Sequence record: SRR22947727_4285
DNA: 50,476 nt
Reading direction: 5' to 3' (one strand)
Part shown: piece by piece, positions 1-18,115 of the stretch
How the letters are laid out: the number at the start of each line of letters is the position of its first letter
Position numbering within the stretch: the first letter of the stretch is position 1
Made by a program: the position numbers and the translations under genes
Notes under the pieces: generated by a model
Database searches by the model: none
What the model was told of the DNA's origin: nothing
Seen by the model: only the letters and a program-made list of their open reading frames with translations

Positions 1-465
1 TCGGTGGACGTCGTCACCGAGTCCGACGTCCAAATTTGTGAGGCCGGGTACTTTAGGGACCTGGGCGGCAACCTGGCCTTTAGTGGCGAGGTGGCAACGG
101 TAAAGTGCTTCGAGAACAATCCGCTTGTTCGCAAGGCGCTGGAGGAGGATGGTCGCGGTCGAGTGCTGGTGGTAGATGGGGGGGCGTCTAAGCGGTGTGC
201 TCTGTTGGGTGACAACATTGCGGAGATGGCCCACAAGAATGGGTGGTCGGGGATCATCATCAACGGGTGCATTCGGGATTCTGCGGATATTTCAAAGATG
301 CCGTTGGGGGTGAAGGCGATCACAACCTACCCGTTGAAGTCGAGCAAGCGTGATGTGGGTTTGCGGGACGTTACAGTGACGTTTGCCGGGGCGACCTTTC
401 GGCCGGGTGACTGGGTCCACGCCGACGGGGATGGCGTGCTCGTGAGCAAAAAGGGAAAGTTGTGA
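1..465 (+). CDS. RraA-family protein / 4-hydroxy-4-methyl-2-oxoglutarate aldolase-oxaloacetate decarboxylase (5'-truncated by window edge)
   Basis: Motifs FSGEVATVKCFENN, GRVLVVDGG, ALLGDNIA, GWSGIIINGCIRD (catalytic R-D) and PGDWVHADGDGV are typical of the RraA/HMG-aldolase family. Ends ...SKKGKL*; TGTAA at 517-521. Confidence 0.92.
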   Translation, partial: SVDVVTESDVQICEAGYFRDLGGNLAFSGEVATVKCFENNPLVRKALEEDGRGRVLVVDGGASKRCALLGDNIAEMAHKNGWSGIIINGCIRDSADISKMPLGVKAITTYPLKSSKRDVGLRDVTVTFAGATFRPGDWVHADGDGVLVSKKGKL

Positions 466-529
466 GATGTGATTTGCGAGCTGTTACTTGTGAGTTGTTT
501 GGCTGGTCTCTGAACCTGTAAATTGGATG
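305..529 (+). repeat. Direct repeat copy 1 (RraA 3' CDS plus 3' UTR), duplicated at 2605-2827
   Basis: Shared blocks ggggtgaaggcgat..caacctaccc, gcgacctttcggccggg(t/c)gactgggtccacgccgacg, ttgtgagttgt..ggct, ctctgaac..tgta..tggatg. Confidence 0.9.
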
Positions 530-692
530 TGGGTGGTCATGGCGGCAGGGTTATCCACGGTCAAGTGACTCACCACGCTCACAGAGGGGGTGGTCAGGGA
601 CAGGATCAAGGGGCATCGCTCATCCCTCCCCCCCCCCCGCTCACGCTCTTTCTATACGTTCAAACTATCATCAGTCGATCTTTGCATGAATT

Positions 693-1986
693 CTACATGC
701 GCATTCCCTGAAAGTCGTTCAAGAGACTGCGGCGGCGAGGGGTCTTGCTGGTGTCCTCCGCGGAGAGCCTCCCCTCCCTCCAGTCCCCGTCGGCTCGCTC
801 TGGGTCTGGCAGATTCGTCATTTCCGAGAGGAACTGCGTGCTGTACGGAGGCCTCATCGACGAGGTTGAATTATACGGAGAAGAAGGGCCTACGGCCTGC
901 CTGGCGCGGGAATGGTCGTCGCTGAGGCTCCTCATCATCGTCGATGGTTTTCTGGGAGGGCGCACGCCACCCCTGTGGCGACCGCCGTGGCGTGGTTGGC
1001 GTTCGGCATGATAATCGGCGGAGTATTCGGCATGATATCCGACATTATACCCTATGGTATGTTCGGTATTGAGGTATTCGAGATTATACCCGTGATTGCG
1101 ATACCTGTTGTCCTCGTTCCAGCGATCGTCGAGACGCTCACGATGCAGAGAAGCTTGGCTCTCGTTGCTGTCGACACTCGACCTCCGATCCATCCTCGGG
1201 AGAAACGACTGGAACGGCGATTGATGTGGCGATTGATAAAGCGACTGGTGGGACGACTGGTACGTTGATTGATACGACTGGTGCGACAAGTGCGACAGGT
1301 GGTGATTGGGCGACTCTGTCCCCTTGCGTGTCGCAAGGCTTTGCGACAGCTGCTTCACGCACGCCGCCTTTGGCATCTTATCCTTAGGTGGAGGGGCGTA
1401 CGAAAACATGATTCCCTGGATGCTCACCTCGGGCTCCACGAACTGACCCTGGAAATCACCCTCAGTGAGGCTCTTGTACACACCAATAGCCTCTTCCATG
1501 ATGGCCACCGCGCTCTTAACCTCTGCGGTCGAACTCCCAGAGACCCTGAACACCCTATAAAGGGAGAGAAGTATGCATAGGACGAATCGTCAATATATAC
1601 CCCCAACTCGCCACCGTTCATTCTCAACTCGACACATACCTGACACCGCCACCCAACATTTTTGAGACTGACGACGTAATCGTAGCACCTGTACGGCACT
1701 GTATCGCACTGATGTTGCGCCCACCAACGCCGCACACAAAGCCGGCGCCGAGCAGAGAAACGCGTACCACCGCCTGGGACCTCCCGTGGACCGCTTGTCC
1801 AGGAGAGAGCATGACGTGGCTCACGAACTCGTTCGTATCATTATTGATGTCGACAATGGGTGGTCCTTGAATCACTCGCGAAGGTGAACGAGCCCCAGAA
1901 TGCATGGGATCGACCATGGATGAGAGAAGTGCGACCATGTTGCCCTCGGAAGAATCGCGTTGTTGCCTGGGATACATTGACTTCAT
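693..1986 (-). CDS. KH-domain RNA-binding protein (exons 1640-1986, 693-1554; ~402 aa)
   Basis: KH signature AGFVCGVGGRNISAIQCRTGATI (GxxG loop). GT-AG intron 1555-1639 joins it in frame to VFRVSGSSTAEVKSAVAIM. The C-terminal half is low-complexity (SHQS repeats, Y/H/R-rich). Confidence 0.75.
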
Positions 1987-2604
1987 GGTGGGAATTCGAG
2001 CCGGTGGGTCAGGTGGGATATCCCCATTGCTCGTTCGGGGGATAGATCTAAAAGACTCTAAGACGCCCGCACCAATTTGAATAGAATGAACTTGAAAGCT
2101 ATCGACTCGGTACTTATCGGATGATGTGATCAGGGAGAATATCTAGATTGTGATACTATGGAGAGCACCTACGACCGCAACTGGCGTATCCTCTGATCTA
2201 GGGCATGCGAGCGCGAGAACGTGGGACAAACACGCTCAATGGAATACTACAGACACGCACATGGAATTTGTGGCACAAATACACGTCGTTAAACGCTACG
2301 GGAGAGGTCGTGTCGCTGTGGGGGAGGAGGAAATCAATGCGGCGATAGTAGTTTTGTTTGGCGTAATTGCGATGATTCAAGCTCTACAGGACGATGCAAA
2401 TGCTGCGTAAGCTGCCTACTGATATTATAGACCCAACAAACACACGTGAAAGCCTAACAGCAAAAAGCGCGAACTACTTTGTAATTATGTGACCGGGGCG
2501 CGTACCCCCTTATCCACATGATTCAGTAAGATTGAATGGGGCCCGCACGCCATCATGGAGTGCCTGATGTCGACATGGGGCAATGCTTGATAGGTGGGCT
2601 TCAA

Positions 2605-2827: not shown

Positions 2828-2860
2828 GAAATAAAAGGGAAAGCAGTCAAAGTGATGAGT

Positions 2861-2896
2861 CTGACGAATTGCTGACTAATTGCTGACTAATTGCTG
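2861..2896. repeat. 11-bp tandem repeat (AATTGCTGACT, ~3 units) spanning the MDH stop codon
   Basis: ctgacg-aattgctgact-aattgctgact-aattgctg read directly. Confidence 0.8.
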
Positions 2897-4396
2897 TTGG
2901 CAAAGGTAATGCCGGCCTCAATGTTCTTGGTCAAGAGCTCGCGCATCTCCTCCATGCCGGCTTTCTCCAGGTCATTCAACTCCCCCAGGGGGAGGAACTC
3001 GGCGACGCCGTCCGGTCCGAGAACGACCCTGCTGCTAAAGAAGGGCAGTCCCTCGACGAGGTTGCTCTCCACATAGGTACATTCGACGACGTTCTTCTCG
3101 CCGCTCTTGGCGAGGAGGACGCTCTCGGCCATGCGTGCGGCGGCGTAGGCCATGGAGAGGGTGGCCGATCCCGCACCGGCCTTAGCCTCAACGACCTCCG
3201 TTCCCGCGTTCTGGATGCGGGTGGTCATGGCGGCAGGGTCCGCCACGATTACAGAGGGGGTGGTCTGGGACAGGAGCGGGAGGATGGTGGTTCCGGCGTG
3301 TCCACCGATGACCGGGACGTTGACGTCGGCCACGTTCAAACCGGAGGCCTCGGCGACAAAAGTATTGGCGCGGACAATGTCGAGGGTGGTCACGCCCATG
3401 ATCTTCCTCGAATCGTAGCATCCGGCCTTCTTCATCACCTCGGCAGCGATCGGAACAGTGGAGTTGACCGGGTTGGAGATGATGTTGACGATGGCGTTGG
3501 GGCAGTTGGCGGCGACGCCCTCGACGAGGCTCTTGACAATGCCAGCGTTGATGTTGAAGAGGTCGTCGCGGGTCATGCCGGGCTTCCGCGGGATTCCAGC
3601 CGGGATGACGACGAGGTCAGCGCCGGTGAGGGCGGCACCAAGCTGCTCAGGTCCCTTATGCGCGGAGACCTTGCACGGGGTGTTGATGTGCGACAGGTCG
3701 GCCGCGACACCCGGGGTGACATCGGCCAAATCGTACACGGCGAGGTTTTCGATCATCGGGTTCATCTTGAGCAGGAGGGCGAGCGGCCTGCAGAGGAAAG
3801 AGGGGACGATGTGAGCCGTGTGCGGGTGGGGCGACAATGGTTGCCGACATCAGCGGGTGTGCGGGTAGGCGGCACGAACATGCGATGCACGCAATATCAA
3901 AATATAACGTACTGGCCAATACCTCCAGCGGCTCCGAGCAACGCCACCTTATACCCGGCGACCGTGGCAGTCGCACAAGCGGTCCTGGATGCAGACGCGG
4001 CATTCGCCTTCCTGGAGGCAACCTTGAACCCGGCGGACTCGACGGCTACCACAGACTTGAATCCCGCATAGCGCGCGATGATTGTCGGCTTGCTGCGGCA
4101 GACGGTAAGCAGGAGAGGCGATGTGAGACGCTCACGAAGGGAAACGGCGGTCGGTCATTCTGGGGGTCGTGATCGCTAATACAAGGGCTCCTCGCCGATC
4201 GCCGCTGATCGCTATTGTTCTCCGGCTTTTGTGTGCAGTGAATATCATACGATCCTCGCGCAGACGCGGCCCACGTTACTGCCAGGACAACCGGAAAAGC
4301 GCAAAGGGCAAATTTTTCGTACCTGCAAGCCCTGTTCGCGTTGGAGGTCGTCTGCCTGCAAAGCGTGCAGGACGAGTTCATCGTGGCGGCAAACAT
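2887..4396 (-). CDS. MDH: NAD-dependent malate dehydrogenase, probably plastid type (exons 4323-4396, 3913-4092, 2887-3787; ~384 aa)
   Basis: Spliced protein has [52 protein letters not shown] and [29 protein letters not shown] (plastid-type wording). It carries a ~70-aa Ser/Ala/Arg-rich N-terminal extension. Introns 4093-4322 and 3788-3912 are GT-AG and restore the frame. Confidence 0.92.
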
Positions 4397-4427
4397 GGTG
4401 GAAATGATGTGAAATACTATCAAAAAA

Positions 4428-5861
4428 CTACTGACAGCAGGCCATGTAGGCCTGGTGGAACTTTGCCCATCTGGCCATCGTCTCGGCCACCTCGTTTTCG
4501 GGAGGTAAAATGGTCGTGCGGACGTGTAATGTGCCCGGCACCTGACCAAACCCGCTTCCAGGGACGGTGACGATGCCAGTGGCGTCCAGGAGCGCCATAC
4601 AGTACTTTGCGTCGGCCGGGGCGGCTCCCTCCGCGCTTGTCTTGCCCTCCAGTCCTACCAGGCGGGGGAACGCGTACAACGCCCCCTCCACCTCATTGCA
4701 AGCTATTCCATCCAATTTATTCAGACTCTCCACCATCATCTTGGCGCGCCTGACCAGGCTGTCCAGGATGCCACGCTTTTCCCGGTCATACAGCTCAAAG
4801 CTCTCATCACCCTCCTTAGGTGGGTTCATGACCATGGCCATGCAAATCTGCCCGTTAATATTCGGGCACAACTTGATGGATGACAGCTTGTAGAGCTGCT
4901 GCTTGACGCCCTCGGGGAAGTTGACGCACTCCATGTATCCCCCACGCCTGCCACACTCCCCGAAGAAGCCCTTGCTGATGCTGTTCATCGACAAGAGGTA
5001 CGCCTTGGAGTTCATATCTCTAACGACCTTCTTGAATGAGTGGAACTGCTTCTTTCCAGCGTAGACATTGCACTGATACACCTCGTCCGCAATCAGCACG
5101 AGCCCCTCCTCCTCGCACAGCTTCACCACGGCCTCCTGCGTCTCCCGGTCCAGCACCTGCCCGGTCGGGTTGCCCGGGTTGATCACAGTGATGGCACGGA
5201 CGCACTTACCCTCGTCCCTCGCCTTCTGCACCGTCTCTCGGAGCCTCTCAATCGTGCACTGCCATCCAGACGCCTCATCAAGGTAGTAACCAACCATGGC
5301 ACCTCCTAGCAGGCTCAACGTCGCCGAGTACAGCGGATACTGAGGAATGGGGACGAGCACCGCGTCGTTCTCATCCCTGATGAGGATCTGCAGGATGTAG
5401 TTGACAGCCCCAGATGCCCCATCCACCAGCCACAGGTCCTCCACGTCGCACGGATGCCCATCGCGAGCCTCGATCCCCTTGGCAACGTGCTCCCGGCACA
5501 CCAAAGCTCCCTTAGACTCGCTATACGCTCCCGTGCCTCCCCTGATCCGGTCCAAGTACTCTCTCGCCCTATCACGAGCATCCGCAGGAAAAAGCGCCTT
5601 GGCCTCCTCTTTCTCCAGCATATCCGGGTAGTCACACAGCGCCAACACCTCCCTGAAGAACGTGATGGGCTTTTGCTGCAAGATCTGCGGGTTGCCGATG
5701 TTGCACTGGATGACACTCTGGAACCCTAGGTCTTGGCCGAGCCTAATCTGCTCGGTGTACTCCTGGGCCTTGACGGCGATTGCTCCCCTAACGGCATACT
5801 CTGCCTTCAGCACATTCTTGTTCAGCGTCGACTCCGCGAACTCGCTCTTCCTCTCGGTCAT
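4428..5861 (-). CDS. Alanine aminotransferase / glutamate:glyoxylate aminotransferase family (class I PLP)
   Basis: EYAVRG, CNIGNPQ, GAYSESKG, PIPQYPLYSA, INPGNPTGQVL, ADEVYQ, SISKGFFGECGRRGGY (PLP Lys), VPGSGFGQ. First ATG at 5861; no obvious targeting peptide or PTS1. Confidence 0.95.
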   Translation of the reverse strand: MTERKSEFAESTLNKNVLKAEYAVRGAIAVKAQEYTEQIRLGQDLGFQSVIQCNIGNPQILQQKPITFFREVLALCDYPDMLEKEEAKALFPADARDRAREYLDRIRGGTGAYSESKGALVCREHVAKGIEARDGHPCDVEDLWLVDGASGAVNYILQILIRDENDAVLVPIPQYPLYSATLSLLGGAMVGYYLDEASGWQCTIERLRETVQKARDEGKCVRAITVINPGNPTGQVLDRETQEAVVKLCEEEGLVLIADEVYQCNVYAGKKQFHSFKKVVRDMNSKAYLLSMNSISKGFFGECGRRGGYMECVNFPEGVKQQLYKLSSIKLCPNINGQICMAMVMNPPKEGDESFELYDREKRGILDSLVRRAKMMVESLNKLDGIACNEVEGALYAFPRLVGLEGKTSAEGAAPADAKYCMALLDATGIVTVPGSGFGQVPGTLHVRTTILPPENEVAETMARWAKFHQAYMACCQ

Positions 5862-6110
5862 CACTCTTTCGCGTTCCGCGTCCGCGAGCCTCGAAAATCA
5901 AATGGGCGAATGTCTGATACTTGTCGTTGAGACGTGATGTGGGCACTCCGAACACACAAGATCGATGTATGTAACTGATACACGAACGCTGGGTGCAGTA
6001 TCTGCGACGTGAAGGACCGTAGATGGGACTTGACGAAATAGTATGTTTTGAGGGTGATCGCGGATGATCGTGGACCATCACTTTTTCTCTCATCGTTCCG
6101 TCGATTGAAT
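5862..6110. promoter_or_regulatory. Putative bidirectional promoter shared by the two glyoxylate-related aminotransferase genes
   Basis: 249 bp between head-to-head ATGs at 5861 (-) and 6111 (+); contains GACGTGA twice. Function inferred from geometry only. Confidence 0.5.
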
Positions 6111-7430
6111 ATGTTTGCCGCACAGATTGTGTCTAGGCTTGATAAAAAGGCAACTCTGGGCGCCCTGGGCCGTGTGCTCGCGGCGGTCCCGTCTTCCACA
6201 TCCGTGGCCGCGCAGTCTGCCAGCTCCACCTCGTACTCGACCAGCACGTCCATCCGCCCAGACGAGACGTCGCATCCCATCGATGACAGTAGCAAGGGGC
6301 CGACAGGCGTCATCGACATCCCGAAAAGGTACCTGATGGGGCCGGGACCGGCCAATGCGTACGAGCGCATCCTCCTGGCGCAGGCCCAACCACTCCTCGG
6401 GCACCTTCACCCGCCGATGCTGAAGATTATGGACGAGATCCAGGAGGGACTCCGTTATCTGTTCCAGACCAAGAGCAAGTACACGCTGGCGGTGAGCGGA
6501 ACGGGCCACGCCGGCATGGAGGCGGCAATCGCAAACCTCGTTGAGCCAGGCGAGACGGTCGTCGTGGGCAACAAGGGCATCTGGGGAGAGCGCGTGGCCG
6601 ATATGGCCGACCGTTTCGGCGCAAACGTCATCGAGCTCAAGGCGGGTGCTGGAAAGACGTTCGGCTATGAGGAGCTCAAGGAGGCAGTGGAGACCCACAA
6701 GCCGGCCGTGCTCTTCCTCTGCCAGGGAGAGTCCTCCACGGGTGTTCAGCAGTCTCTGGCTGGCCTTGGGGATCTCTGTGAGAAGAACGGCACCCTCCTC
6801 CTCGTCGACACGGTGTGCTCTCTGGGTGGCGTGCCCATCTTTGCCGATGACTGGAAGATTGATGCCATCTACAGTGGCGCCCAGAAGTGCCTCAGCGCGC
6901 CGCCCGGATCGGCGCCGCTCTTCCTGAGCGACCGTGCGGTCGAGAAGCTTAAGAGCAGGAAGACCAAGGTCAGGTCGTACTACCTCGACATGAACCTTGT
7001 TGGCGACTACTGGGGCTGGTTCGGAGGCCGCTCCTACCATCACACCGGTATGGTCTCCACGTGGTACGGTCTTCGAGAGGCGCTCGCCATTGTCGCGGAG
7101 GAGGGACTCGAGGCGATGTGGGAGCGACATATGGCCTGCCACAACCAGCTCTGGGAGGGACTCTCGGCCATGGGCTGCAAGCCGTTTGTGGAGGATCCCA
7201 AGGACAGGCTCGCAACGGTGAACACGATCGTCCTGCCCGAGGGTACCGATGCCATGGCCTTGATTAAGAACGCGATGGACAAGTATAACGTCGAGATCAG
7301 CGGCGGACTGGGTCCTACCTTTGGCAAGGTGATTCGCATCGGCCTCATGGGCGCCAACGCAAAGCCGGCGACCGTTGCGCTCGTGCTGGAGGCTGTCGAG
7401 GACGGCCTCAAGTTACAGGGCAAGCTCTAA
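6111..7430 (+). CDS. AGT1: Alanine/serine:glyoxylate aminotransferase (class V PLP, AGXT type)
   Basis: LMGPGPAN, SGTGHAGMEAA, GESSTGVQQ, VDTVCSLGG, YSGAQKCLSAPPG (PLP Lys), YHHT, IRIGLMG. N-terminal mitochondrial-like presequence MFAAQIVSRLDKK...; ends GKL*. Confidence 0.95.
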   Translation: MFAAQIVSRLDKKATLGALGRVLAAVPSSTSVAAQSASSTSYSTSTSIRPDETSHPIDDSSKGPTGVIDIPKRYLMGPGPANAYERILLAQAQPLLGHLHPPMLKIMDEIQEGLRYLFQTKSKYTLAVSGTGHAGMEAAIANLVEPGETVVVGNKGIWGERVADMADRFGANVIELKAGAGKTFGYEELKEAVETHKPAVLFLCQGESSTGVQQSLAGLGDLCEKNGTLLLVDTVCSLGGVPIFADDWKIDAIYSGAQKCLSAPPGSAPLFLSDRAVEKLKSRKTKVRSYYLDMNLVGDYWGWFGGRSYHHTGMVSTWYGLREALAIVAEEGLEAMWERHMACHNQLWEGLSAMGCKPFVEDPKDRLATVNTIVLPEGTDAMALIKNAMDKYNVEISGGLGPTFGKVIRIGLMGANAKPATVALVLEAVEDGLKLQGKL

Positions 7431-7573
7431 TTTATTTGTGTTACGCGGCTCGCTTTAATTCAAGCTGTTGATTGAACCAAGGCCTGATGGCCATGACCAT
7501 CTGATGGCGAGGTTGCATGAGGCGCGGGGAGGGCTTGGCAGAATCCACTCTTTTTTCGGCTAGCATTATCTCA

Positions 7574-9135
7574 ATGATGGTCACCCTGTCGTCATTGCAC
7601 CCTGGAAGGTGCCCCGTCCTGCGAACTACCGGGCATGGTTCGTTTTTCATTCGTTCATCTGCAAAGGCCATTTTCCGTGCAGCGGCTGCTTGCTTGTGCG
7701 TCCGCGCCCTCTGACTCCGCCCCTATCTCTCGTTAACAGTCTCACAGTGCGCCCACACGCGACTGATCGGCTCCACGGCCTCGAAGTTGACTCAGACCCG
7801 AATTCAGGCGCTGAACGAGAAAACCGGGGCATATGGCGTGTTCGAGCTGAACTACGACGCGGACAAGGTACGTGGCATTTGTATTAATGGGTTCTGCTGG
7901 ATGGCGGCCGTCGGCTTCCGATGGCGCCCAAGTGTGGAGCGACCTTGCGCGGCTGATCGTGATGAAGGTTTCGCAGCCGGCCGCGCGCTCCTGCCCCGTC
8001 CGGACGGCATCACAAGCTCACCCCTCATGCGCGCCGACCGAAATAATTCCCGTAGGAGGACCCACGACTCACGCAGACGTGGAAGAAGACGATGAACGTG
8101 GTCGTCACGGGGGCCGCTGGGCAGATTGCCAACCACCTTCTGTTCATGCTGGCGTCTGGCGAGGTGTTTGGCAAAGATCAGCCAATCGCGCTGCATCTGC
8201 TTGGGTCGGAGCGCTCGCGCGAGGCGGTTGAGGGTGTGGCCATGGAGCTTGAGGACTCGCTGTACCCGCTGCTGAGGCAGGTGATGATCGGCACTGACCC
8301 AATGAAGGTGTTCAAGGACGCCGACTGGGCCATCCTCATCGGCGCCAAGCCCAGGGGGCCGGGAATGGAGAGGGCGGATCTATTGGACATCAACGGGCAG
8401 ATTTTCCAGGAGCAAGGAAAGGCACTGAACGCTGTGGCCAACAAGAACTGCAAGATGATGGTGGTCGGAAACCCTTGCAACACCAACGCCCTCATCGGCA
8501 TGGAGAACGCCCCGGATATCCCGAGGAAGAACTGGCACGCGCTCACCAGGTTGGATGAGAACAGGGCCAAGTGCCAACTTGGACTCAAGGCGGGCAAGTT
8601 TTACACCTCGGTCACCAACATGTGCGTCTGGGGCAACCACTCCACAACGCAGGTTCCTGATTTTATCAACGCGAAGATTGGCGGGAAGAGGGCTCCGGCG
8701 GTCATTAGGGATACCCAGTGGCTCAAGGAGGAGTTCACGCCGACCGTCGCCACCAGGGGTGCCGCGTTGATCAAGAAGTGGGGACGCTCATCCGGAGCCT
8801 CCACGGCCGTTTCTATTGCCGATGCGCTGCGCTCGTTGTATATCCCCACGAAGGAGGGCGACTGCTTCTCCAGCGCTGTGTGCACTGATGGAAATACGTA
8901 CGGCATTGAGGAGGGCCTCGTGTTCTCCATGCCCTGCAGAAGCAACGGGGACGGGGACTATGAGATCATCGACGACTTTGTCATCGACGAGTGGCTGCAG
9001 ATGAAGCTGGATAAATCACAGGAGGAGTTGGTCGGGGAGAGGAGCTGTGTCAGTCACCTGATCCCGGAGAGTCGCAGGAGGTCTCCGCCAGCGTGCGATA
9101 TCAAGGAGGACACCATGCTGCCCGGGGAGAAATAA
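7574..9135 (+). CDS. Plastid NADP-dependent malate dehydrogenase (exons 7574-7637, 7740-7867, 8056-9135; ~423 aa)
   Basis: [73 protein letters not shown] and the C-terminal regulatory extension CVSHL...[12 protein letters not shown]. Introns 7638-7739 and 7868-8055 are GT-AG and in frame. Confidence 0.95.
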
Positions 9136-9168
9136 TTACAAGATGAAGTCTCGTAGGGCACAGTTTAC

Positions 9169-9636
9169 CTACGTCTTCTTCCCCTTCTTCTTTCTCTTAT
9201 TGGAGGTACCACCCATGAGTAATTGATCCCTCGTCATCGCGGTCTTCTGCTTCGTCCCAACCATCGCCACCCGGGATTCGCCGTCCCCTTCGCTCTCGCT
9301 CCCAGCGGCCCTTTTCTCCGCGCTCCCCAGCCTTTCACCTTCCTTCCTCTTCTTCTGGTTCAGTAATCTCTCGTCAAGTTTTCTATTCCAAGCCCCGTTG
9401 GCCTTCGACTTCGACACGAAACTCGCCTTCTTCACCCCAAAGCCGAGCCCAGGGAGCGCCTGGTGCCCCCCGGCCCTTCTCTTCTCGGCGCCCGAGCCCT
9501 CCTCGCTGCCATCCAACCCCGCAAGACCCTCCAGTGCATCATCAGCACTGACGCCCAGCCATTGCGCAGCCAAGCGAAGGGCGGTGTGCGTGGGAACGAT
9601 TTCGCCCTCGTCGGTCCTCCCTTTGGCATCGCACAT
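9169..9636 (-). CDS. Small basic hypothetical protein (plant-type conserved unknown, probably nuclear)
   Basis: ORF from ATG 9636 with IVPTHTALRLAAQWLG, PGLGFG, acidic ESR segment and NLS-like KRKKKGKK tail. TTACA (minus-strand TGTAA) at 9136-9140. Confidence 0.6.
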   Translation of the reverse strand: MCDAKGRTDEGEIVPTHTALRLAAQWLGVSADDALEGLAGLDGSEEGSGAEKRRAGGHQALPGLGFGVKKASFVSKSKANGAWNRKLDERLLNQKKRKEGERLGSAEKRAAGSESEGDGESRVAMVGTKQKTAMTRDQLLMGGTSNKRKKKGKKT

Positions 9637-9973: not shown

Positions 9974-12900
9974 ATGAAGGTGAAAACGAATCGTATCTCG
10001 ATATATAAACCGCTCGGCCTTTGCCGTTCGGTGCTTGGGTCGGGCCAGGCGGTCCGCCCGATCCACCCAGCAAAGTCGCGCCTGGCGCCGTCCGGTCGCC
10101 GAGACAGGAGGCCGAGCGTGGCGGTGGAGGCGAGCCACAGCGCCGTCCCACCCGCCCAGGGCCTCTTTAATCCTTCGAACGACAAGGATAATTGCGGTAC
10201 GCGGTCGATTTATCCGTGAACTCTCCGTTGACCCTTACCCTAACCTGGCACTCACTCGACGCGCTTCACCTCCAATGATTCGCAGGTGTCGGTTTCGTGG
10301 CCGAACTGTCGAAGCAGCCGACGCGACGCACGGTCACGGACTCGCTGGAGATTCTCGTTCGAATGACCCACCGCGGTGCCTGCGGGTGCGAGGCCAACAC
10401 GGGAGACGGTGCCGGTATCCTCGTGGGCATCCCCCACGACTTTCTGAGGAAGGAGATCGAGGATTCGGGGACGTTCTCACTGCCGAAGCAGGGAGATTAT
10501 GGGGTCGGAATGGTGTTCCTTCCGAAGGATGCCGAGCAGTACGAGATGGCCAAGTCGGCGCTGAGGAGGGTTGTGGAGTCAAGGGGGCACACGCTTCTGG
10601 GCTGGAGGACCGTGCCCACTGATAGCTCTGATCTGGGGCACGGAGCGCTACAGACGCAGCCCATCATCGAGCAATTCTTCATCACTGAGAGCACACGCTC
10701 GAATGACCTGGAGAAGACGATGGAGCAGCAGATGTACGTCCTGAGGAAGCTGATTGAACAGGGGTGGCGCGTGGCGGGCATGACCGATGATGACGCGTAC
10801 ATCTGCTCCCTATCCTCCGAGACTATCGTGTACAAGGGTCAGTTAACGCCGCAGCAGGTGGAGCAGTTCTTCTTGGACCTGCAGAGCCCGCTATTCACCT
10901 CTTACGTCGCGCTGGTGCACTCGAGGTTCTCCACCAACACCTTCCCGTCGTGGCACAGGTCTCAGCCCATGCGCGTCCTGGGGCACAACGGTGAGATTAA
11001 TACCCTACAGGGCAATGTCAACTGGATGAAGGCGAGACAGGGTGTGATGAGGTGCAACGACCTGCAGGTCACGGAGAGGACCCTGCAGAAGCTGCTACCA
11101 GTCATCCCGAAGAATCAGTCCGACTCGGGTTCGTTCGACTCGGTCCTTGAGCTGCTCATTCGCAGCGGAAGGGACTTGCCGGAGGCCATGATGATGTGCA
11201 TCCCGGAGGCCTGGCAGAACGATCAGCTCATGGACGGGCACAAGCGAGACTTCTACAAGTTCCATTCTTGCATCATGGAGCCGTGGGACGGGCCAGCGCT
11301 GGTCGCCTTCACGGATGGCAGGTATATCGGTGCTACTCTGGACAGGAACGGCCTTCGTCCGGGTAGGTATTACGTGACCAAGGACCAGAGGGTGGTCATG
11401 GCATCCGAGGTGGGTGTGGTCGACATTCCCCCAGCTGACGTAGAGAGGAAGGGAAGGCTCATGCCGGGTAACATCTTTTTGGTGGACTTTGACGCCCACT
11501 GTGTCATCGATGATGCGGCACTCAAGGAGAAATACTCCAACCTGAGGCCGTACGGCGAGTGGCTGAAGAAGGAGACCGTCACGCTGTATGATATTGTCAA
11601 GAGTTCCCCGCACCACCTCGCCCCGCCGGAGATCAACGGGGTCAACACCACGCCCAGCAATGGCAGCGGGCCCCCCAAGGGCCTTCAGAAGCTTTTGCCA
11701 CCCCTGAAGGCGTTCGGATACACGTCAGAGACTATTGACAAGCTCCTGCTGCCGATGTCGGTGTCGGGTGCCGACCCGCTGGGCTCGATGGGCAACGACT
11801 CACCGCTCGCCGTGATGAGCGAGCGTCCCAAGCTCATCTTTGAGTACTTCAAGCAGTTGTTTGCACAGGTGACTAATCCAGCCATCGACCCGATCAGGGA
11901 AAAGCTTGTCACCTCAATGCGCAGCATGATCGGGCCCGAGGGCGACATCACCGAGACCAAGAGCGAGCAGGCGCATAGGCTCGACCTTCCGCACCCCTTC
12001 TTGAAGCCGAACGAGATGGAGGCGATCAAGAGGATGCAGTTCCAAGGTTGGGCGGCCAAGACCATCGACATCACCTGGCCTGTTCATGAGGGGGAGAAAG
12101 GCATTGTTGCCGCCATCGACCGTGTCTGCGCGGAGGCTGCCCTGGCCATAGAGGACGGCTTTGACTTCATCGTACTATCTGATAGGGCGGCCGATAGCAC
12201 GCGTGTCTCCATGAGCTCCCTGATGGCCGTTGGTAGGGTCCACCATCACCTGGTCCAGCTCCAGAAGCGCTCGAGGGTGGGTCTGCTTCTCGAGGCGGCG
12301 GACGCCAGGGAAGTGCACCACTTCTGTTTGCTGCTCGGGTACGGCGTGGATGCATTTTGCCCGTATCTTGCCATGGACACTGTCCTGGCGCTGCAGGAGG
12401 AGGGCATGATCAAGCATACCGCCTCCAAGGACGAGATCCTCGAGCAGTACATCAAGGCATCCCGCGATGGTGTCGTCAAGGTTATGGCCAAAATGGGCAT
12501 CTCCACTGTGGCCTCCTACAGGGGATCTCAGATATTCGAGTCGGTCGGTCTCGGGAATGACGTTGTCAACGCCTGCTTCAAGGGGACTGCCTCGAGGATC
12601 GGCGGCCTTGGCTTCTACGACCTAGCCAGGGATCTCTTGGACCTGCATAGAGTTGCGTACGCCGATAAGTACGCTTCGAATGTGCTTCCGAATCCTGGAA
12701 ACTACCACTTCAGATCGACCTCTGAGAACGACGTGCACCTGAACTCGCCGCTTGCCATGGCCAAGCTCCAGGAGGCGTCTCGCAACGGCGACTCCAAGGC
12801 CTATAAGGAGTACTCTAGGCTTACGCAGGAGCTCAACAAGCAGGTCAACCTGCGCGGGATGCTGAGATTCAAGGCCGCCCCTGGGGGCCCAATCCCCATC

Positions 12901-15900
12901 AGCGAGGTCGAGCCCGCGTCACAAATCTGCAGGAGGTTCGTCACTGGCGCCATGTCGTACGGATCTATCTCTCTCGAGGCCCATACGACACTAGCCATTG
13001 CCATGAACACTCTTGGAGGCAAGTCCAACACCGGAGAGGGTGGTGAGAACCCGAGGAGGCTCAAGCCCAACGAGGATGGCTCCCAGAACGCGATGAGGTC
13101 GGCCATCAAGCAGATTGCTTCGGGAAGATTTGGTGTCACCGCCAACTACCTTACCAACGCTGATGAACTGCAGATTAAGATCTCCCAGGGCGCCAAGCCC
13201 GGCGAGGGAGGCGAGCTCCCCGGTGTCAAGGTGCAGGGCGACATTGCCAAGACGAGGAGGTCGACACCCGGGGTGGGCCTCATTTCTCCGCCGCCGCACC
13301 ACGATATCTACTCTATTGAGGACCTTGCGCAGCTCATTTACGACCTGAAGAGCTCCAACCCGGCCGCGCGCGTGTCCGTCAAGCTGGTGAGCGAGAATGG
13401 AGTGGGCGTCGTCGCGTCAGGGGTGGTAAAAGGCCACGCTGACCACGTGCTCATCTCTGGCCACGACGGAGGCACGGGAGCGGCCAAGTGGACGTCGATC
13501 AAGCATGCGGGACTGCCTTGGGAGCTCGGGTTGGCCGAGACACACCAGACCCTCGTGGCCAACGACCTCCGCAGCAGGACCGTCGTCCAAGCCGATGGCC
13601 AGATGAAGACGGGTCGCGATATTGCGGTCGCCGCGCTTCTGGGTGCCGAGGAGTTTGGATTTGCCACCGCTCCTCTCATCACCATGGGGTGCATCATGAT
13701 GCGCAAGTGCCACACCAACACATGCCCAGTCGGCATTGCCACTCAGGACCCAGTGCTGCGCGCCAAGTTTTCCGGCGAGCCTGAGCACGTCATCAACTTC
13801 CTGTTCATGGTTGCCGAAGAGATGAGGGAATACATGGCCGAGATGGGATTCAGGACAATCGAGGAGATGGTCGGGCGCGCCGACATGCTGGAGGTCGACC
13901 CGGACGTCCAGCGGGCCAATCACAAGCTGGCCGGCATCGACCTGTCGAAACTCTTGGTTCCTGCAGCGACCATTCGTCCAGACGCGAAGCAGACCTGCCA
14001 GATCAAACAGGATCACGGTCTGGACTCTGGCCTGGACGACACCCTCATCTCCCTGTGCAAGGACGCCCTCCCTGACGGTGAGGATGCGTTTCAGACCGTC
14101 AGCATCGAGTCTTACGTGTTTAACACGCACCGCGCCGTCGGTACCACGTTGTCGCACGAGGTGACGAAGCGCTTTGGCGAGGTGGGCCTGCCCAGGGACT
14201 CGATCCACATCAAGCTTCACGGCCATGCTGGACAGTCCCTGGGCGCATGGCTCTGCCCGGGAGTCACCATCGAGCTCGAGGGTGATGCCAACGACTACGT
14301 TGGCAAAGGGCTCTCGGGTGGTGTCCTCGCCGTGTACCCGCCGAGGAAATCCACTTTCGCTCCTCAGGAGAACGTCATCGTTGGGAACGTTTGCCTGTAC
14401 GGGGCCACAGCTGGCGAGGCCTACTTCAGCGGCGTCGCTGCCGAGAGGTTCTGCGTTAGGAACTCGGGCGCTGAGGCCGTGGTCGAGGGTGTCGGAGATC
14501 ACGGATGCGAGTACATGACGGGAGGCGTCGCGGTCATTCTCGGCAAGACGGGAAAGAACTTTGGCGCCGGTATGAGCGGCGGGCTCGCGTTCGTGTACGA
14601 CCCAGCCAAGTCGCTGGGATCCATGTGCAATGTCGATATCGCCTCCGACCTGTTCCCGGTCGCCGAGGAGGAGGACGTCGCGCTATTGAAGCGCCTTGTC
14701 GCCAGCCACCTCGAGCACACGGGCTCGCCTCTCGCGAAGGAGATCCTGGACGATTGGGACGTCTCGGTCACGCGCTTCACCAAGGTGTTTCCCCATGAAT
14801 ATAAGAAGGCATTGGAGGACCTGATCAAGCTCAATTTGGCCCAGAAAGAGGAGGCCGAGGTGCTCGCCAACGCCGAGGGCGACGCGTTTGACACGCTCCG
14901 TAAGATGGCCCTGTCCGTGGTCAACGATGGTCCGGGTATCAAGCCGTCTTCCAAGCACATTGCCTCGCCGTTCACGCCCCGGACCTCTGACGATCCCAAG
15001 GAGGAGTTCGCTAGGCTGCTCCAGGACGCTTCAAGCGGCCTCCCGGTCGCGGGCAGGGACCCCGTCTGGGACGAAAAAAGGCCGAAGCTCGTCGAACAGG
15101 GTGCCACCCAGAAACAAGGTGGCTTCATGAGGTACGAGAGGGACCCACTCTCCTACAGGCCCGTCGATGAGCGCCTCAAGGACTACGACGAGGTGCTTGC
15201 GCCCTCAGCCGGCGGGGTCACAGCCAACCTCCTCAACACCCAGAGCGCCAGGTGTATGGACTGCGGCACCCCATACTGCCTGAACAAAGACACTGGATGT
15301 CCTCTCGGAAACCTGATCCCCGAGTGGAACCAGCTCGTGTGGCAGGGCAGGTGGAAGGAGGCCTGTGACAGGCTGCTCGCCACGAACAACTTCCCGGAAT
15401 TCACTGGGCGCGTCTGCCCGGCGCCGTGTGAGGGTTCGTGCGTCCTCGGCATCAACCAGAACCCGGTGACAATCAAGACCATGGAGGTGTCCATCATCGA
15501 TAAGGCCTTTGAGGAGGGCTGGATCACGCCCCACCCGCCGACGGCGAGGACGGGCAGGCGCGTTGCCATCATCGGCAGCGGGCCCTCGGGCATGGCCGCT
15601 GCTGATCAGCTCAATAAAATGGGACATGCTGTCACCGTCTTTGAGCGCGCCGATCGCATCGGCGGGCTGATGATGTACGGAGTGCCCAACATGAAGACAG
15701 GCAAGAACGAGATCGTCCAGAGGCGAGTGGACCTGATGGCCGCCGAGGGCGTTAAATTTGTGACGAACGCCGCCGTCGGTAAGGCCGTCGACATAAATCC
15801 CCTCAAGGCCGAATCGGACGCCATTGTGCTGGCCGCGGGCGCGACCAAGCCGAGGGACCTCCCTATCGATGGCAGGGGCCTGGCCGGCGTCCACTTCGCC

Positions 15901-16701
15901 ATGGAGTATCTGACGGCCAATACCAAAAGCCTGCTGGACTCCAACCATGTCGACGGCAACTTCATCTCGGCGAAAGGTAAGCGAGTGATTGTAATCGGCG
16001 GTGGGGATACCGGGACCGACTGCATCGGCACGGCCGTCCGCCATGGGGCGAAGAGCGTCGTCAACCTCGAGCTTTTGAGCAAGCCTAGCGAGACGCGGGC
16101 CCCAGGCAACCCGTGGCCTTACTATCCGCGTGTCTTCAAGGTCGACTACGGCCACGCTGAGGCAACGGAGAAGTACGGTCAAGATCCGCGCATCTATGAC
16201 GTCCTGACCAAGCGTTTCATCGGCGACGAGGACGGTAACCTCGTCGGCTTGGAGATCGTGGACGTGGCTTGGACCTTCCCGGCGAGTGGAGGCAGGCCAA
16301 CTTTCGAGGAAGTCGAGGGCAGCGCCCGCCTGATCGAGGCTGACATCTGTCTGCTCGCCATGGGCTTCCTTGGCCCTGAGGAGACGCTCGCTGAGGCTTT
16401 GGGTGTCGAGCTCGACGAGCGCTCGAACTTCAAGGCGCAGTACGGAAGCAGCGGCCATGCGACGAATATCGACGGGGTGTTTGCTGCAGGCGATTGCCGC
16501 CGCGGCCAGAGCCTAGTCGTTTGGGCCATCGCTGAAGGCCGTCAAGTGGCGGACGTGGCACACAACTATCTCATGGAGAGGGAAGCCGTCAACCCCGACG
16601 GCACTGACGAGTTCGAGGGCGGCGTGATTGACCTGGCGCAGTTCGAGGCGGACAGATCGTCGGCCGAGGGAGCACGGGGCCAGGAGGGAGCAGCGGTTTA
16701 G
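9974..16701 (+). CDS. GLT1: NADH-dependent glutamate synthase (NADH-GOGAT), plastid; exons 9974-10196, 10286-16701; ~2212 aa
   Basis: Transit peptide then DNC|GVGFVA (N-terminal nucleophile Cys across intron 10197-10285). Also [38 protein letters not shown] (3Fe-4S), and a fused beta-subunit region [38 protein letters not shown]. Confidence 0.97.
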
Positions 16702-16799
16702 ATACAACAGTGGACTACTGTACAAAAGAACGAAGAGAATGTGCCGTTTCCGAAGTTACTAATAGTTGTTATGATAAAAGATTGTACTCCGAAGACGTC

Positions 16800-18115
16800 T
16801 CAAAGGTTCAGTTCTTTGGCGTTGACGATGCTTGGGGCGGCCTTCGGAATGGCATCGAAGTCGCCGTCAACGAAAACCAGCACGTCATTCGGCTGATCCC
16901 ACACAGGGTGGCCGCTCAAAATGGCGGCGACGTTCTTCGCGGCAAGCGTCGCCATTCCGGATCTCGTCCACAGCGACGCACTGCAAAAGAGCAAGGGCGA
17001 GAGAGATGTGAGACAGGAGCAGGCAACTGAGGGAGTCAGCGAGCGAGATCCGATGCATACCTGGCGATGTGAGGCACAATCACCGCATTCGGACATTCTT
17101 TCAAACCAGGCTTCATCAACGGTTCGTCCTCGAAGACGTCAAGCCCCACGCGGAACTCGGGGTTCGATTGAAGGTGATCCACAAGCGCCACCTCGTCGAT
17201 GACGGGCCCGCGCGCAGCGTTGATCAAAACGGCATCCGACTTCATCAGACCCAACCGCTTTTTGTTGATCAGATGCTTGGTGTTCTCGTCCAGGTTGCAG
17301 TGCAGACTCACGACATTGCTCTCCTTGAGCACGTCCTCCACCGACTCGAGACGTCTGACAGTGATGGGCGCCTCGCCGCGGCTCTCGACCAGCTTTGAGT
17401 AGTCAGCCACATAGTCCTCCAGCCATTTGTTGGGGTACGGGTCGTAGTAGACGAGGTTCATTTTGTGGCCCTCAACCATCATTCGTGCATACGCCGTACC
17501 GATCCTGCCAGCCCCGATGATACCCACGGTCTTGTTCTGGAGCAGCTGCCCCACGAAAAGGTCGGGAAGCCAACCTTCATACTTCTCCGCGCGCATGAAT
17601 CCATCGGCTTCCACCACTCGGCGTGCCGCAGCAAACGTCAGTGAAGCAGCCAGCTCGGCCGTCGTCTCCGTCAGCACCCCCGGCGTGTTCCCCACGGCGA
17701 TCGACCTCTTGGTTGCCTCCGGGACCACCACGTTGTTGTACCCAACCGCGTAGTTCGAGTACGCCTTGCCACCGGCCTCCTTCAGGGCCTCAAACAGCTC
17801 GGTGCCCCAGTCCTCGGTCAGCTGACCCACCACTCCATCGCACTTGGAACCGATCAGCGTCTTGATCGTGGCGTTGTCCAGAATGGTCTGCTCCGACTGA
17901 CAAATCTCCACCCTGCATCCTGCCGAGGTCAGAATGTCCCTCCAGCGTGTACCCGGCAAGTTCTTGGTGACCAAAACACGTTGGGTGCCCGAGGGATTCA
18001 GGATTTCGACAGGAATGCCATCCACCGTCGACGAGGACGAGTAGGTACGAATAGCCGACATAAAAGTACCCCTGCTGCACCTCGAAACGCTCCGACTGAG
18101 TAGAAAAGAAGCCAT
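16800..18115 (-). CDS. HPR1: Hydroxypyruvate reductase / glycerate dehydrogenase, HPR1 type (exons 17061-18115, 16800-16980; ~411 aa)
   Basis: GQLTEDWG, NYAVGYNNV, GNTPGVLTETTAELA, GIIGAGRIG, INAARGPVIDE, GLDVFEDEP and VPHIA|SASLWTRSGMATLAA across intron 16981-17060. Mitochondrial-like presequence; no PTS1. Confidence 0.95.

What the first reader, a model, noticed from the sequence alone, without database searches (positions are those of the whole stretch)
1..18115. Eukaryotic metabolic gene cluster for photorespiration, malate valve and ammonium re-assimilation
Seen: seven of the nine genes in this 18 kb are RraA/HMG-aldolase, NAD-MDH, AlaAT/GGAT-family, AGT/SGAT, NADP-MDH, NADH-GOGAT and HPR1. 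Known: GGAT and SGAT transaminate glyoxylate, HPR reduces the hydroxypyruvate made by SGAT, MDHs shuttle the reductant, and GOGAT regenerates glutamate from 2-oxoglutarate and photorespiratory NH4+. The two aminotransferases belong to different classes and the two MDHs to different subfamilies, so this is not a tandem array. Inference: a selected, co-regulated cluster of primary metabolism. Such clusters are rare in eukaryotes (nitrate-assimilation clusters are the familiar algal case), and I do not know of a described photorespiratory one. It may extend beyond the left edge of the window.
Basis: partly seen in the sequence, partly recalled or inferred. Interest (0 to 1): 0.9.

Follow-up and report, generated by a model that had tools for sequence, protein, structure and literature searches.

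The report
Compact photorespiration-linked gene cluster in alga
An uncultured marine green alga keeps seven enzymes of glyoxylate and hydroxypyruvate handling, malate shuttling and glutamate regeneration side by side in 18 kb; this looks like a tighter, enlarged version of a gene neighbourhood already reported in related algae.

Summary
Window 1-18115 carries RraA-like, NAD-MDH, AlaAT-family, class-V AGT, NADP-MDH, fused NADH-GOGAT and HPR1, plus two unrelated or unknown ORFs. RNA contigs give canonical splice joints for four of these genes, and an independent DNA run confirms the gene order.

One correction: the class-V enzyme is AGXT-type (alanine:glyoxylate / serine:pyruvate), not plant SGAT-type.

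Random gene placement is rejected for any reasonable category. Linkage is partly conserved:
- AGT and HPR1 lie 5-16 locus tags apart in 4 of 11 named green-algal genomes, and in Chlamydomonas.
- AlaAT|AGT and NADP-MDH-GOGAT adjacency recur in close relatives, with rearrangements.
- GOGAT is unlinked in more distant genomes.

A "photorespiration" cluster in Picochlorum, and its conservation, are already in print. I could not see which genes that cluster contains.

Co-regulation is untested. In Picochlorum celeri, glutamate synthase did not follow the photorespiratory enzymes.

Verdict: a real, non-random cluster; a new, enlarged variant of a known kind; moderate interest.

The parts
1..465 (+). 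RraA-like protein (RraA / HMG-aldolase / oxaloacetate-decarboxylase family), 5' end cut by the window edge
   Evidence: PF03737 152 bits. NF006875 200 bits (cut-off 136) and TIGR01935 191 bits. Orthologues lie 4.5-4.9 kb upstream of NADP-MDH in L001 and L003.
693..1499 (-). Low-complexity ORF of unknown function; doubtful gene
   Evidence: No Pfam or NCBIfam family. Next to no RNA contig cover. No tblastn match in 51 loci.
2887..4396 (-). NAD-malate dehydrogenase (mitochondrial/glyoxysomal/plastid type). Three exons: 2887-3786, 3912-4092, 4323-4396. About 70-residue N-terminal extension.
   Evidence: TIGR01772 370.8 bits. PDB hits: glyoxysomal 1smk 358 bits, chloroplastic 8j5d 353 bits, mitochondrial 4wle 315 bits. 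Spliced RNA contig with CT..AC joints at 3786/3912 and 4092/4323. ATG at 4396.
4428..5861 (-). Alanine aminotransferase family protein (the AlaAT/GGAT subfamilies cannot be told apart here)
   Evidence: PF00155. Barley AlaAT2 3tcm 546 bits. Its stop codon lies 31 nt upstream of the NAD-MDH ATG on the same strand.
5862..6110 (.). 249-bp divergent intergenic region between AlaAT (-) and AGT (+); putative bidirectional promoter
   Evidence: Coordinates. The same head-to-head AlaAT|AGT pair is seen in L001. No convincing shared motif was found.
6111..7430 (+). Alanine:glyoxylate / serine:pyruvate aminotransferase, AGXT type, with about 70-residue N-terminal presequence
   Evidence: PF00266. 2huf 426 bits, 1vjo 387 bits, human AGXT 359 bits, plant SGAT 6pk1 117 bits. 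Green-algal orthologues are named alanine--glyoxylate transaminase.
7517..9135 (+). Chloroplast-type NADP-malate dehydrogenase. Exons: to 7636, 7739-7865, 8054-9135. ATG at 7517 or 7574.
   Evidence: TIGR01757 659.4 bits, above the 598.3 cut-off. GT..AG joints at 7636/7739 and 7865/8054 in RNA contigs of two studies. C-terminal Cys pair present, N-terminal Cys pair absent.
9169..9636 (-). Small lysine-rich ORF, unrelated to metabolism (weakly DUF3245/NOP19-like), divergent from GOGAT
   Evidence: No Pfam or NCBIfam family. 47% identical ORF sits next to GOGAT in L011. Atlas scores 0.94-0.95 with low recognition, so this is a lead only.
9974..16701 (+). NADH-glutamate synthase, fused large and small subunits. 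Exons 9974-10195 and 10285-16701. N-terminal presequence before the catalytic Cys.
   Evidence: Domain set. NF008730 1583 bits and TIGR01317 695 bits. GT..AG joint 10195/10285. Best named hits are 'glutamate synthase (NADH)'. ATG at 9974.
16800..18115 (-). Hydroxypyruvate reductase 1 (NADH-type HPR1). Exons 16800-16980 and 17061-18061/18115. Convergent with GOGAT, with 98 nt between the stop codons.
   Evidence: PF02826/PF00389. 100% match to the 393-aa P0001; 71% to Chlamydomonas HPR1. CT..AC joint 16980/17061 in three RNA runs. Coordinates.

Best explanation
This is a genuine, non-random neighbourhood of primary-metabolism genes in an intron-poor marine green alga. Its nearest named relatives are Picochlorum and Nannochloris.

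Its core is an old AGT1-HPR1 linkage that is shared with other core chlorophytes and is already published as a 'photorespiration' cluster or neighbourhood. In this lineage the neighbourhood has become tighter and larger. AlaAT sits head-to-head with AGT. An MDH follows each aminotransferase on the same strand. NADH-GOGAT lies between NADP-MDH and HPR1.

Inferred working:
- AGT aminates glyoxylate with alanine, and can make hydroxypyruvate from serine.
- AlaAT regenerates alanine from glutamate.
- GOGAT regenerates glutamate from 2-oxoglutarate.
- HPR1 reduces hydroxypyruvate with NADH.
- NADP-MDH (chloroplast) and NAD-MDH move the reductant as malate.

Co-location would favour joint regulation through shared or overlapping control regions. 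These are the 249-bp divergent AlaAT|AGT region and the 31-nt and 86/143-nt spacers before the two MDH genes.

Shown: gene identities, gene order, splice joints, excess over chance, partial conservation of linkage.
Inferred: pathway coupling, organelle targeting, co-regulation, selection.
For: - Gene identities.
- Chance is rejected. Three of a published 17-gene Chlamydomonas photorespiration list (AAT, AGT1, HPR1; PMC8320531 Table 2) falling within 9 genes has P <= 0.003-0.009 (simulation 0.0016). Six of a 30-gene set falling within 9 genes has P of about 1e-9.
- The physical order is real. Contigs of DNA run X9 cover 199-3585, 3556-4708, 4690-7766, 7932-12321 and 12336-15692. The stretch is held at a share of 0.89 or more in 13 DNA runs of 6 studies.
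- The genes are transcribed and spliced: canonical joints for NAD-MDH, NADP-MDH, GOGAT and HPR1.
- Conservation among close relatives. L001 carries AlaAT(-), AGT(+), RraA, NADP-MDH and GOGAT within 13.8 kb. L011, L010 and L012 have NADP-MDH next to GOGAT. L003 has RraA about 4.9 kb from NADP-MDH.
- AGT and HPR1 locus tags lie 8 apart in Nannochloris desiccata, 5 in Micractinium sp. CCAP 211/92, 14 in Parachlorella kessleri and 16 in C. incerta. They are 16 ID steps apart in C. reinhardtii.
- A Chlorella sp. A99 gene model fuses AGT with an NAD-MDH that is 68% identical to the window's.
- Literature: a photorespiration cluster in Picochlorum and its conservation.
Against: - Co-expression was not tested. 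The laid data were contigs, which cannot rank genes.
- In Picochlorum celeri, photorespiratory enzymes rose in air but glutamate synthase was unchanged, and transcript and protein responses were largely uncoupled.
- AGT and HPR1 are on different contigs or scaffolds in 6 of the 11 named genomes present in both lists: Scenedesmus PABB004, Monoraphidium minutum MAG, Astrephomene, Elliptochloris, Pedinophyceae YPF-701 and Botryococcus.
- GOGAT is adjacent to the other genes in none of 7 named genomes. It is on different contigs or chromosomes in 4 of them.
- L006/L007 (NADP-MDH 69% identical) have none of the partner genes within 10 kb.
- In L001 unrelated genes (ETF, a DEAH helicase, a mitochondrial carrier) are interspersed.
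- In plants the photorespiratory GOGAT is the ferredoxin enzyme, not the NADH enzyme (established knowledge, recalled).
- The category 'photorespiration + malate valve + N re-assimilation' was drawn after seeing the genes.
- No shared promoter motif or conserved non-coding block was found.
- Locus-tag distance and equal contig length are proxies for gene order, not direct evidence.
Confidence: 0.6

Rival explanations
1. Linkage by descent plus neutral accretion. An ancient AGT-HPR1 proximity persisted by inertia. In a very compact genome a few rearrangements happened to bring other abundant metabolic genes next to it. There is no shared regulation and no selection on the arrangement.
For: - Gene order differs between close relatives: window versus L001 versus L011.
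- Housekeeping neighbours WAPL-EPL1-CPSF_A and PDX1 are also syntenic between the window and L011/L003, so background synteny is still high at this distance.
- GOGAT and NADP-MDH linkage is not seen in more distant genomes.
- Glutamate synthase was not co-regulated with photorespiratory enzymes in P. celeri.
- No shared promoter motif was found.
Against: - The random-placement bounds are very small.
- AGT-HPR1 proximity survives across two classes, in 4 of 11 named genomes plus C. reinhardtii.
- Rearrangements between the window, L001 and L011 shuffle the genes but keep them within about 15-20 kb.
- An AGT-NAD-MDH adjacency recurs in Chlorella sp. A99.
Confidence: 0.25
2. The module is real but is not specifically photorespiratory. 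It would be a general amino-group and reductant shuttle (alanine/pyruvate, glutamate/2-oxoglutarate, malate/oxaloacetate) serving C/N balance, or a C4-like organic-acid cycle.
For: - NADP-MDH, NAD-MDH and AlaAT are also C4-cycle enzymes. A paper argues for C4 potential in Picochlorum SENEW3 (PMC11092101, passages).
- The GOGAT is the NADH type.
- In L006 the NADP-MDH lies 3.6 kb from pyruvate carboxylase.
- RraA-family proteins include oxaloacetate decarboxylases (family names).
Against: - AGT1 and HPR1 are listed photorespiration genes in Chlamydomonas, and they form the conserved core of the linkage.
- No PEPC, PPDK or malic enzyme is present among the ORFs scanned in the window.
Confidence: 0.1
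3. Artefact: a chimeric metagenome assembly, or a remnant of a transferred bacterial operon (for example a serine-cycle-like sga-hpr-mdh set).
For: - The window appears to come from environmental data, since it is held by marine metagenome runs.
- Methylotroph serine-cycle operons also combine a glyoxylate aminotransferase, HPR and MDH (recalled).
Against: - Independent runs from several studies hold the stretch, and their contigs bridge the gene junctions.
- Relatives share the adjacencies.
- The genes have spliceosomal introns and N-terminal presequences.
- Their best hits are green-algal or plant orthologues.
Confidence: 0.03

Closest known systems
'Photorespiration' functional gene cluster of Picochlorum SENEW3 (Foflonker et al. 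2016, Algal Res) and the conserved green-algal neighbourhood reported by Foflonker & Blaby-Haas 2020 (PMC7826186)
   Same: Co-located photorespiratory genes in a compact trebouxiophyte genome. The neighbourhood is conserved across at least two classes, seen here for AGT1-HPR1. The papers state that the cluster exists and is conserved (passages).
   Different: I could not see the published gene membership. The 2016 and 2018 papers are not held, the rows of Table 1 of PMC7826186 are not held as text, and supplements are closed. Here the set also includes NADH-GOGAT, two MDHs, AlaAT and RraA. The GOGAT and NADP-MDH linkage appears only in close relatives.
Nitrate-assimilation gene clusters of green algae (NIA/NII/NRT2/NAR2, sometimes with MOT1/CNX2)
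   Same: A primary-metabolism cluster of non-homologous genes in small algal genomes. It is documented as co-regulated in Picochlorum SENEW3 (PMC12198440, passages).
   Different: Those genes form one linear uptake-and-reduction pathway, and co-regulation has been shown. Here the products probably act in several organelles, and co-regulation is untested.
Serine-cycle gene clusters of methylotrophic bacteria (serine-glyoxylate aminotransferase, hydroxypyruvate reductase, malate dehydrogenase and partners); recalled, not tested here
   Same: The same reaction types sit side by side: glyoxylate amination, hydroxypyruvate reduction and malate/oxaloacetate interconversion.
   Different: Those are true operons in bacteria. 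Here the genes are nuclear, with introns and presequences, and are of green-lineage ancestry.
Bicistronic/polycistronic nuclear loci of green algae (PMC7896298, search listing only; PMC11291117, passages)
   Same: Very short same-strand spacers: 31 nt for AlaAT to NAD-MDH and 86 or 143 nt for AGT to NADP-MDH. The median inter-ORF spacer of bicistronic loci in Auxenochlorella is 40 nt.
   Different: Known loci have a short ORF 1 (median 291 nt in Auxenochlorella) with few upstream AUGs. Here ORF 1 is 1434 nt with 27 further ATG triplets (AlaAT), or 1320 nt with 19 (AGT). No single transcript was shown.

Membership tests
Green-algal photorespiration gene neighbourhood (Foflonker 2016; Foflonker & Blaby-Haas 2020) | Two or more photorespiratory genes within a few genes of each other | tested here: met
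   AlaAT, AGT and HPR1 lie within 13.7 kb and 6 genes. All three are on the Chlamydomonas photorespiration gene list (PMC8320531 Table 2).
Green-algal photorespiration gene neighbourhood (Foflonker 2016; Foflonker & Blaby-Haas 2020) | Proximity of the orthologous pair conserved in at least two classes of green algae | tested here: met
   AGT and HPR1 locus tags are 5-14 apart in 3 trebouxiophytes, 16 apart in C. incerta, and 16 ID steps apart in C. reinhardtii. They are not on one contig in 6 of 11 named genomes. Tag distance is a proxy for gene order.
Green-algal photorespiration gene neighbourhood (Foflonker 2016; Foflonker & Blaby-Haas 2020) | Same gene membership as the published cluster | not testable with these tools
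Eukaryotic metabolic gene cluster (three or more non-homologous enzyme genes of one pathway, adjacent, co-regulated) | Three or more non-homologous enzyme genes, physically adjacent | tested here: met
   Seven enzymes from six different Pfam architectures among 9 ORFs. The two MDHs belong to different NCBIfam equivalogs.
Eukaryotic metabolic gene cluster (three or more non-homologous enzyme genes of one pathway, adjacent, co-regulated) | Products act in one pathway | tested here: inconclusive
   The coupling is inferred from family-level functions only. The GOGAT is the NADH type, the RraA role is unknown, and targeting was not predicted.
Eukaryotic metabolic gene cluster (three or more non-homologous enzyme genes of one pathway, adjacent, co-regulated) | Co-regulated expression | not testable with these tools
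   Only contigs of metatranscriptomes could be laid, and they cannot rank genes. A relative's proteome argues against GOGAT being co-regulated.
Plant-type serine:glyoxylate aminotransferase (SGAT / AtAGT1) | Closest sequence similarity to SGAT rather than to AGXT-type enzymes | tested here: not met
   SGAT 6pk1 scores 117 bits against 359-426 bits for animal and cyanobacterial AGXT-type chains.
Chloroplast NADP-malate dehydrogenase (TIGR01757) | Score above the curated cut-off; C-terminal regulatory Cys pair; N-terminal regulatory Cys pair | tested here: met
   659.4 bits against a 598.3 cut-off. The C-terminal Cys pair is present. The N-terminal pair is absent, as I recall for the Chlamydomonas enzyme; that comparison comes from memory, not from a call.
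Peroxisomal plant HPR1 | C-terminal PTS1 tripeptide | tested here: not met
   The protein ends ...AKELNL and has an Arg/Ser-rich N-terminus. It is orthologous to Chlamydomonas HPR1 at 71% identity.
Green-algal bicistronic locus | Short inter-ORF spacer, short AUG-poor ORF 1, one mature transcript | tested here: inconclusive
   The spacer is 31 nt (met). ORF 1 is 1434 nt with 27 further ATG triplets (not met). A single transcript could not be tested.

The most novel reading that the evidence does not exclude
The cluster is an operon-like regulatory unit assembled recently by stepwise recruitment onto the old AGT1-HPR1 neighbourhood. One 249-bp divergent control region would drive two mirror-image 'aminotransferase then malate dehydrogenase' pairs. 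The downstream genes have no room for promoters of their own (spacers of 31 nt and 86/143 nt). They would therefore be co-transcribed with, or initiated inside, the upstream gene. GOGAT and HPR1 would share the same chromatin domain. This arrangement would hard-wire the stoichiometry of amino-donor recycling and reductant supply for glyoxylate and hydroxypyruvate metabolism.
Probability: 0.15. Interest if true: 0.75.

Novelty: new variant of a known kind. Interest (0 to 1): 0.45.

Why it matters
Clusters of primary-metabolism genes are uncommon in eukaryotes. They are useful in two ways: they point to functional partners, and they offer compact, transferable modules.

Suppose the enlarged set is co-regulated. 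That would argue that, in these picoalgae, glyoxylate amination runs through an AlaAT+AGT couple. It would also argue that NADH-GOGAT and two MDHs are functionally tied to the photorespiratory carbon and nitrogen cycle. It would nominate the RraA-like protein and, in a relative, a carnitine/ornithine-type mitochondrial carrier as candidate pathway members.

The set of relatives with shuffled but still linked genes gives a natural series for testing whether selection maintains such clusters.

If the cluster is not co-regulated, it is a cautionary example. Striking functional neighbourhoods can then arise in very compact genomes without any regulatory meaning.

Tried and rejected
- Whole-genome search. 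No genome is held for this window. The records behind the metagenome loci are not held either. So I could not run a true permutation test, look left of the window, or extend L001 and L011.
- Earlier findings of the scan: nothing by place, sequence or words.
- Shared promoter motifs. Only two 7-mers occur in 3 of 5 cluster promoters, against 1 of 10 control intergenic regions. This is too weak to use.
- Phylogenetic footprinting of the unk2|GOGAT region against L011. Nothing is conserved outside coding sequence.
- Rfam, tRNA and tandem-repeat scans of 1-20000. No RNA genes were found, only small repeats near 2758-2896 and 9758-9783.
- RNA depth across genes. The laid runs are contigs, so depth cannot rank genes. 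Parts without RNA cover (1335-2668) prove nothing.
- The joints at 5183/5685-5686 (side 20, non-canonical ends) and 14415/14506 (side 20) were set aside. They are probably from other organisms or repeats.
- Published membership of the Picochlorum cluster. Four look-ups failed. A phrase search for 'photorespiration/photorespiratory gene cluster' found one unrelated wheat paper. Further searches gave no description of the genes.
- HGT or chimera readings were rejected (see rival explanations).
- The bicistronic reading of AlaAT-NAD-MDH was considered and judged unlikely under the leaky-scanning model. It is not excluded.

Full report
**What is there**

The window is GC about 0.57 and intron-poor. 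No genome is held for it. In 1-18115 the long ORFs and their family matches are:
- RraA-like, 1-465+
- an unknown low-complexity ORF, 693-1499-
- NAD-MDH, 2887-3765- (plus upstream exons)
- an AlaAT-family aminotransferase, 4428-5861-
- a class-V aminotransferase, 6111-7430+
- NADP-MDH, 8092-9135+ (plus upstream exons)
- a small unknown ORF, 9169-9636-
- a 2134-residue fused glutamate synthase, 10297-16701+
- a D-2-hydroxyacid dehydrogenase, 17036-18115-

At subfamily level:
- The two MDHs fall in different NCBIfam equivalogs, both above cut-off: TIGR01772 at 370.8 bits and TIGR01757 NADP-dependent at 659.4 bits (cut-off 598.3).
- The dehydrogenase is the orthologue of Chlamydomonas HPR1 (71% identity) and of a Picochlorum protein named 'hydroxypyruvate reductase' (78%).
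- The glutamate synthase has the large-plus-small-subunit architecture, and its best named hits are NADH-GOGAT.
- The class-I/II aminotransferase is closest to barley AlaAT2 (546 bits).
- The class-V enzyme is AGXT-type: 426 bits to mosquito AGT, 387 to a Nostoc enzyme, 359 to human AGXT, and only 117 bits to plant SGAT. Enzymes of this type also carry out serine:pyruvate transamination (molecule names).

The remaining 32 kb of the window holds no gene of these pathways among the 26 ORFs scanned. It carries WAPL-like, EPL1, CPSF_A/RSE1-type, PDX1, an RNA methyltransferase, Rad21, an M14 carboxypeptidase, cis-prenyltransferase, WD40, an apyrase, a TPT fragment and a zinc-ADH.

**Gene models and physical reality**

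The stretch 4401-14400 is held at a word share of 0.89 or more by 13 DNA runs of 6 studies, and partly by RNA runs.

I laid three RNA runs and one DNA run on 1-20000. This gave canonical splice joints for:
- NAD-MDH: introns 3787-3911 and 4093-4322
- NADP-MDH: introns 7637-7738 and 7866-8053
- GOGAT: intron 10196-10284
- HPR1: intron 16981-17060, seen in three runs

DNA contigs of run X9 cover RraA to NAD-MDH, AlaAT to AGT, and NADP-MDH into GOGAT.

Translating across these joints gives:
- an NAD-MDH with an N-terminal extension of about 70 residues, ATG at 4396
- an NADP-MDH that has the C-terminal regulatory cysteine pair but not the N-terminal pair
- a GOGAT with a presequence before the catalytic Cys, ATG at 9974
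- an HPR1 identical to the 393-residue P0001, which ends without a PTS1 tripeptide

The layout is compact:
- AlaAT and AGT are head-to-head across 249 bp.
- The NAD-MDH ATG lies 31 nt after the AlaAT stop, on the same strand.
- The NADP-MDH ATG lies 86 or 143 nt after the AGT stop.
- GOGAT and HPR1 converge, with 98 nt between their stop codons.

**More than chance?**

Without the genome I could only bound the probability under random gene placement, for 6,000-10,000 genes:
- Three genes of a published 17-gene Chlamydomonas photorespiration list (PMC8320531 Table 2) within 9 consecutive genes: at most 0.003-0.009 (simulation 0.0016).
- Six of a 30-gene set (that list plus MDHs, GOGATs and GS): about 1e-9.
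- Seven of nine drawn from 400 'central metabolism' genes: 5e-5 to 1e-3.
- Only for 800 'any enzyme' genes does the bound reach 0.006-0.12.

The category was drawn after seeing the genes, so the smaller figures overstate the case. Chance still remains a poor explanation.

**Conservation**

A scan of metagenome contigs with NADP-MDH returned 51 loci. A tblastn of 13 window proteins against them, with Pfam on the intervening ORFs, shows:
- L001 (NADP-MDH 91% identical): AlaAT(-), AGT(+), a mitochondrial carrier, RraA, ETF, a DEAH helicase, NADP-MDH, then GOGAT running off the contig end.
- L003/L002 (79%): RraA, ETF, helicase, NADP-MDH, with no GOGAT.
- L011, L010, L012 (97% in the first exon; GOGAT 91%): WAPL-EPL1-CPSF_A next to NADP-MDH, which is tail-to-tail with GOGAT, then the small unknown ORF.
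- L006/L007 (69%): none of the partner genes within 10 kb.

So the genes are shuffled between close relatives but stay near one another. General synteny (WAPL, EPL1, CPSF_A, PDX1) is also still visible at this distance.

The protein searches add wider evidence through locus tags and contig lengths.
- Eleven named genomes appear in both the HPR1 and the AGT lists.
- In 4 of them the tags are 5-16 apart: Nannochloris desiccata 8, Micractinium sp. CCAP 211/92 5, Parachlorella kessleri 14, Chlamydomonas incerta 16.
- In 1 ([Myrmecia] bisecta) both genes are on one 4.94-Mb contig.
- In 6 they are on different contigs or scaffolds.
- In C. reinhardtii the gene IDs are 16 steps apart on chromosome 6, with SHMT2 a further 14 steps away.
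- Unnamed contigs of 18,549 and 72,935 bases, and one of 323,881, each appear to carry HPR1, AGT and GOGAT relatives.
- GOGAT is adjacent to the others in none of 7 named genomes.
- A Chlorella sp. A99 gene model fuses AGT with an NAD-MDH that is 68% identical to the window's. This points to the same-strand adjacency of these two genes in that species.

**What is known**

PMC12198440 (passages) lists 'photorespiration' among the functional gene clusters of Picochlorum SENEW3 and says some are co-expressed under salinity stress. It cites Foflonker 2015, 2016 and 2018. PMC7826186 (passages) reports that a screen of ten green-lineage genomes 'captured conservation' of that photorespiration cluster.

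The published gene membership is therefore unknown to me.

**How it most likely works**

Shown: the identities of the genes, their order, and partial conservation of linkage.

Inferred from established enzyme functions:
- AGT aminates glyoxylate with alanine.
- AlaAT restores alanine from glutamate. A link between AlaAT and mitochondrial glycolate oxidation is the subject of PMC3346230 (search listing only).
- NADH-GOGAT restores glutamate from 2-oxoglutarate.
- HPR1 reduces hydroxypyruvate with NADH.
- The two MDHs carry reductant as malate.

Co-location around a divergent promoter, with very short spacers, would favour joint control.

Against this reading:
- Expression could not be compared.
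- Glutamate synthase did not follow the photorespiratory enzymes in Picochlorum celeri.
- No shared motif or conserved non-coding block was found.
- The photorespiratory GOGAT of plants is the ferredoxin enzyme (recalled).

**Verdict**

The cluster is best seen as an enlarged, compacted variant of a known green-algal photorespiration neighbourhood. Selection and co-regulation remain to be shown. Interest is moderate.

Noticed in passing
window 4396-4430 and 7430-7574: Same-strand gene pairs have almost no intergenic space. The AlaAT stop lies 31 nt before the NAD-MDH ATG, and the AGT stop lies 86 or 143 nt before the NADP-MDH ATG. Either the MDH transcripts start inside the upstream genes, or the pairs are co-transcribed.
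   Followed up: partly
L001 3209-4120 (-): In a close relative, a mitochondrial carrier of the ornithine / carnitine-acylcarnitine subfamily sits between AGT and RraA. I recall that the plant carrier BOU, of this subfamily, is linked to photorespiration. The carrier is absent from the 50-kb window.
   Followed up: partly
P0132 (EukProt, Chlorella sp. A99, scaffold11.g3976): A 767-residue gene model fuses AGT with an NAD-MDH that has its own transit-like linker. It is probably two adjacent genes merged by the gene predictor, but a real fusion is not excluded.
   Followed up: partly
L006 8061-11789 and L007 5608-9336: In a more distant alga (NADP-MDH 69% identical), NADP-MDH lies about 3.6 kb from a pyruvate carboxylase, which is another oxaloacetate-handling enzyme.
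   Followed up: no
L002 1-13062: The contig is a near-perfect palindrome. RraA and NADP-MDH each appear twice, in mirror image. This is probably an assembly artefact.
   Followed up: no
window 10196-10284 vs L011; L011 10639-11008: Intron positions differ between close relatives. The window's GOGAT intron is absent in L011. L011's NADP-MDH match is broken at two places where the window's gene is continuous.
   Followed up: no
window 43490-47524 (+): A 1344-residue ORF has no Pfam family. It lies in the stretch with the highest AT skew of the window.
   Followed up: no
window 2758-2896 and 3852: Small tandem repeats lie just 3' of NAD-MDH. In DNA run X9 the population differs by a 33-nt repeat step at 2861-2893 and by an 8-nt insertion in the NAD-MDH intron at 3852.
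   Followed up: no
window 9169-9636 (-): A small lysine-rich ORF lies between NADP-MDH and GOGAT and is conserved next to GOGAT in L011 (47% identity). It is weakly DUF3245/NOP19-like by protein-language-model features.
   Followed up: partly
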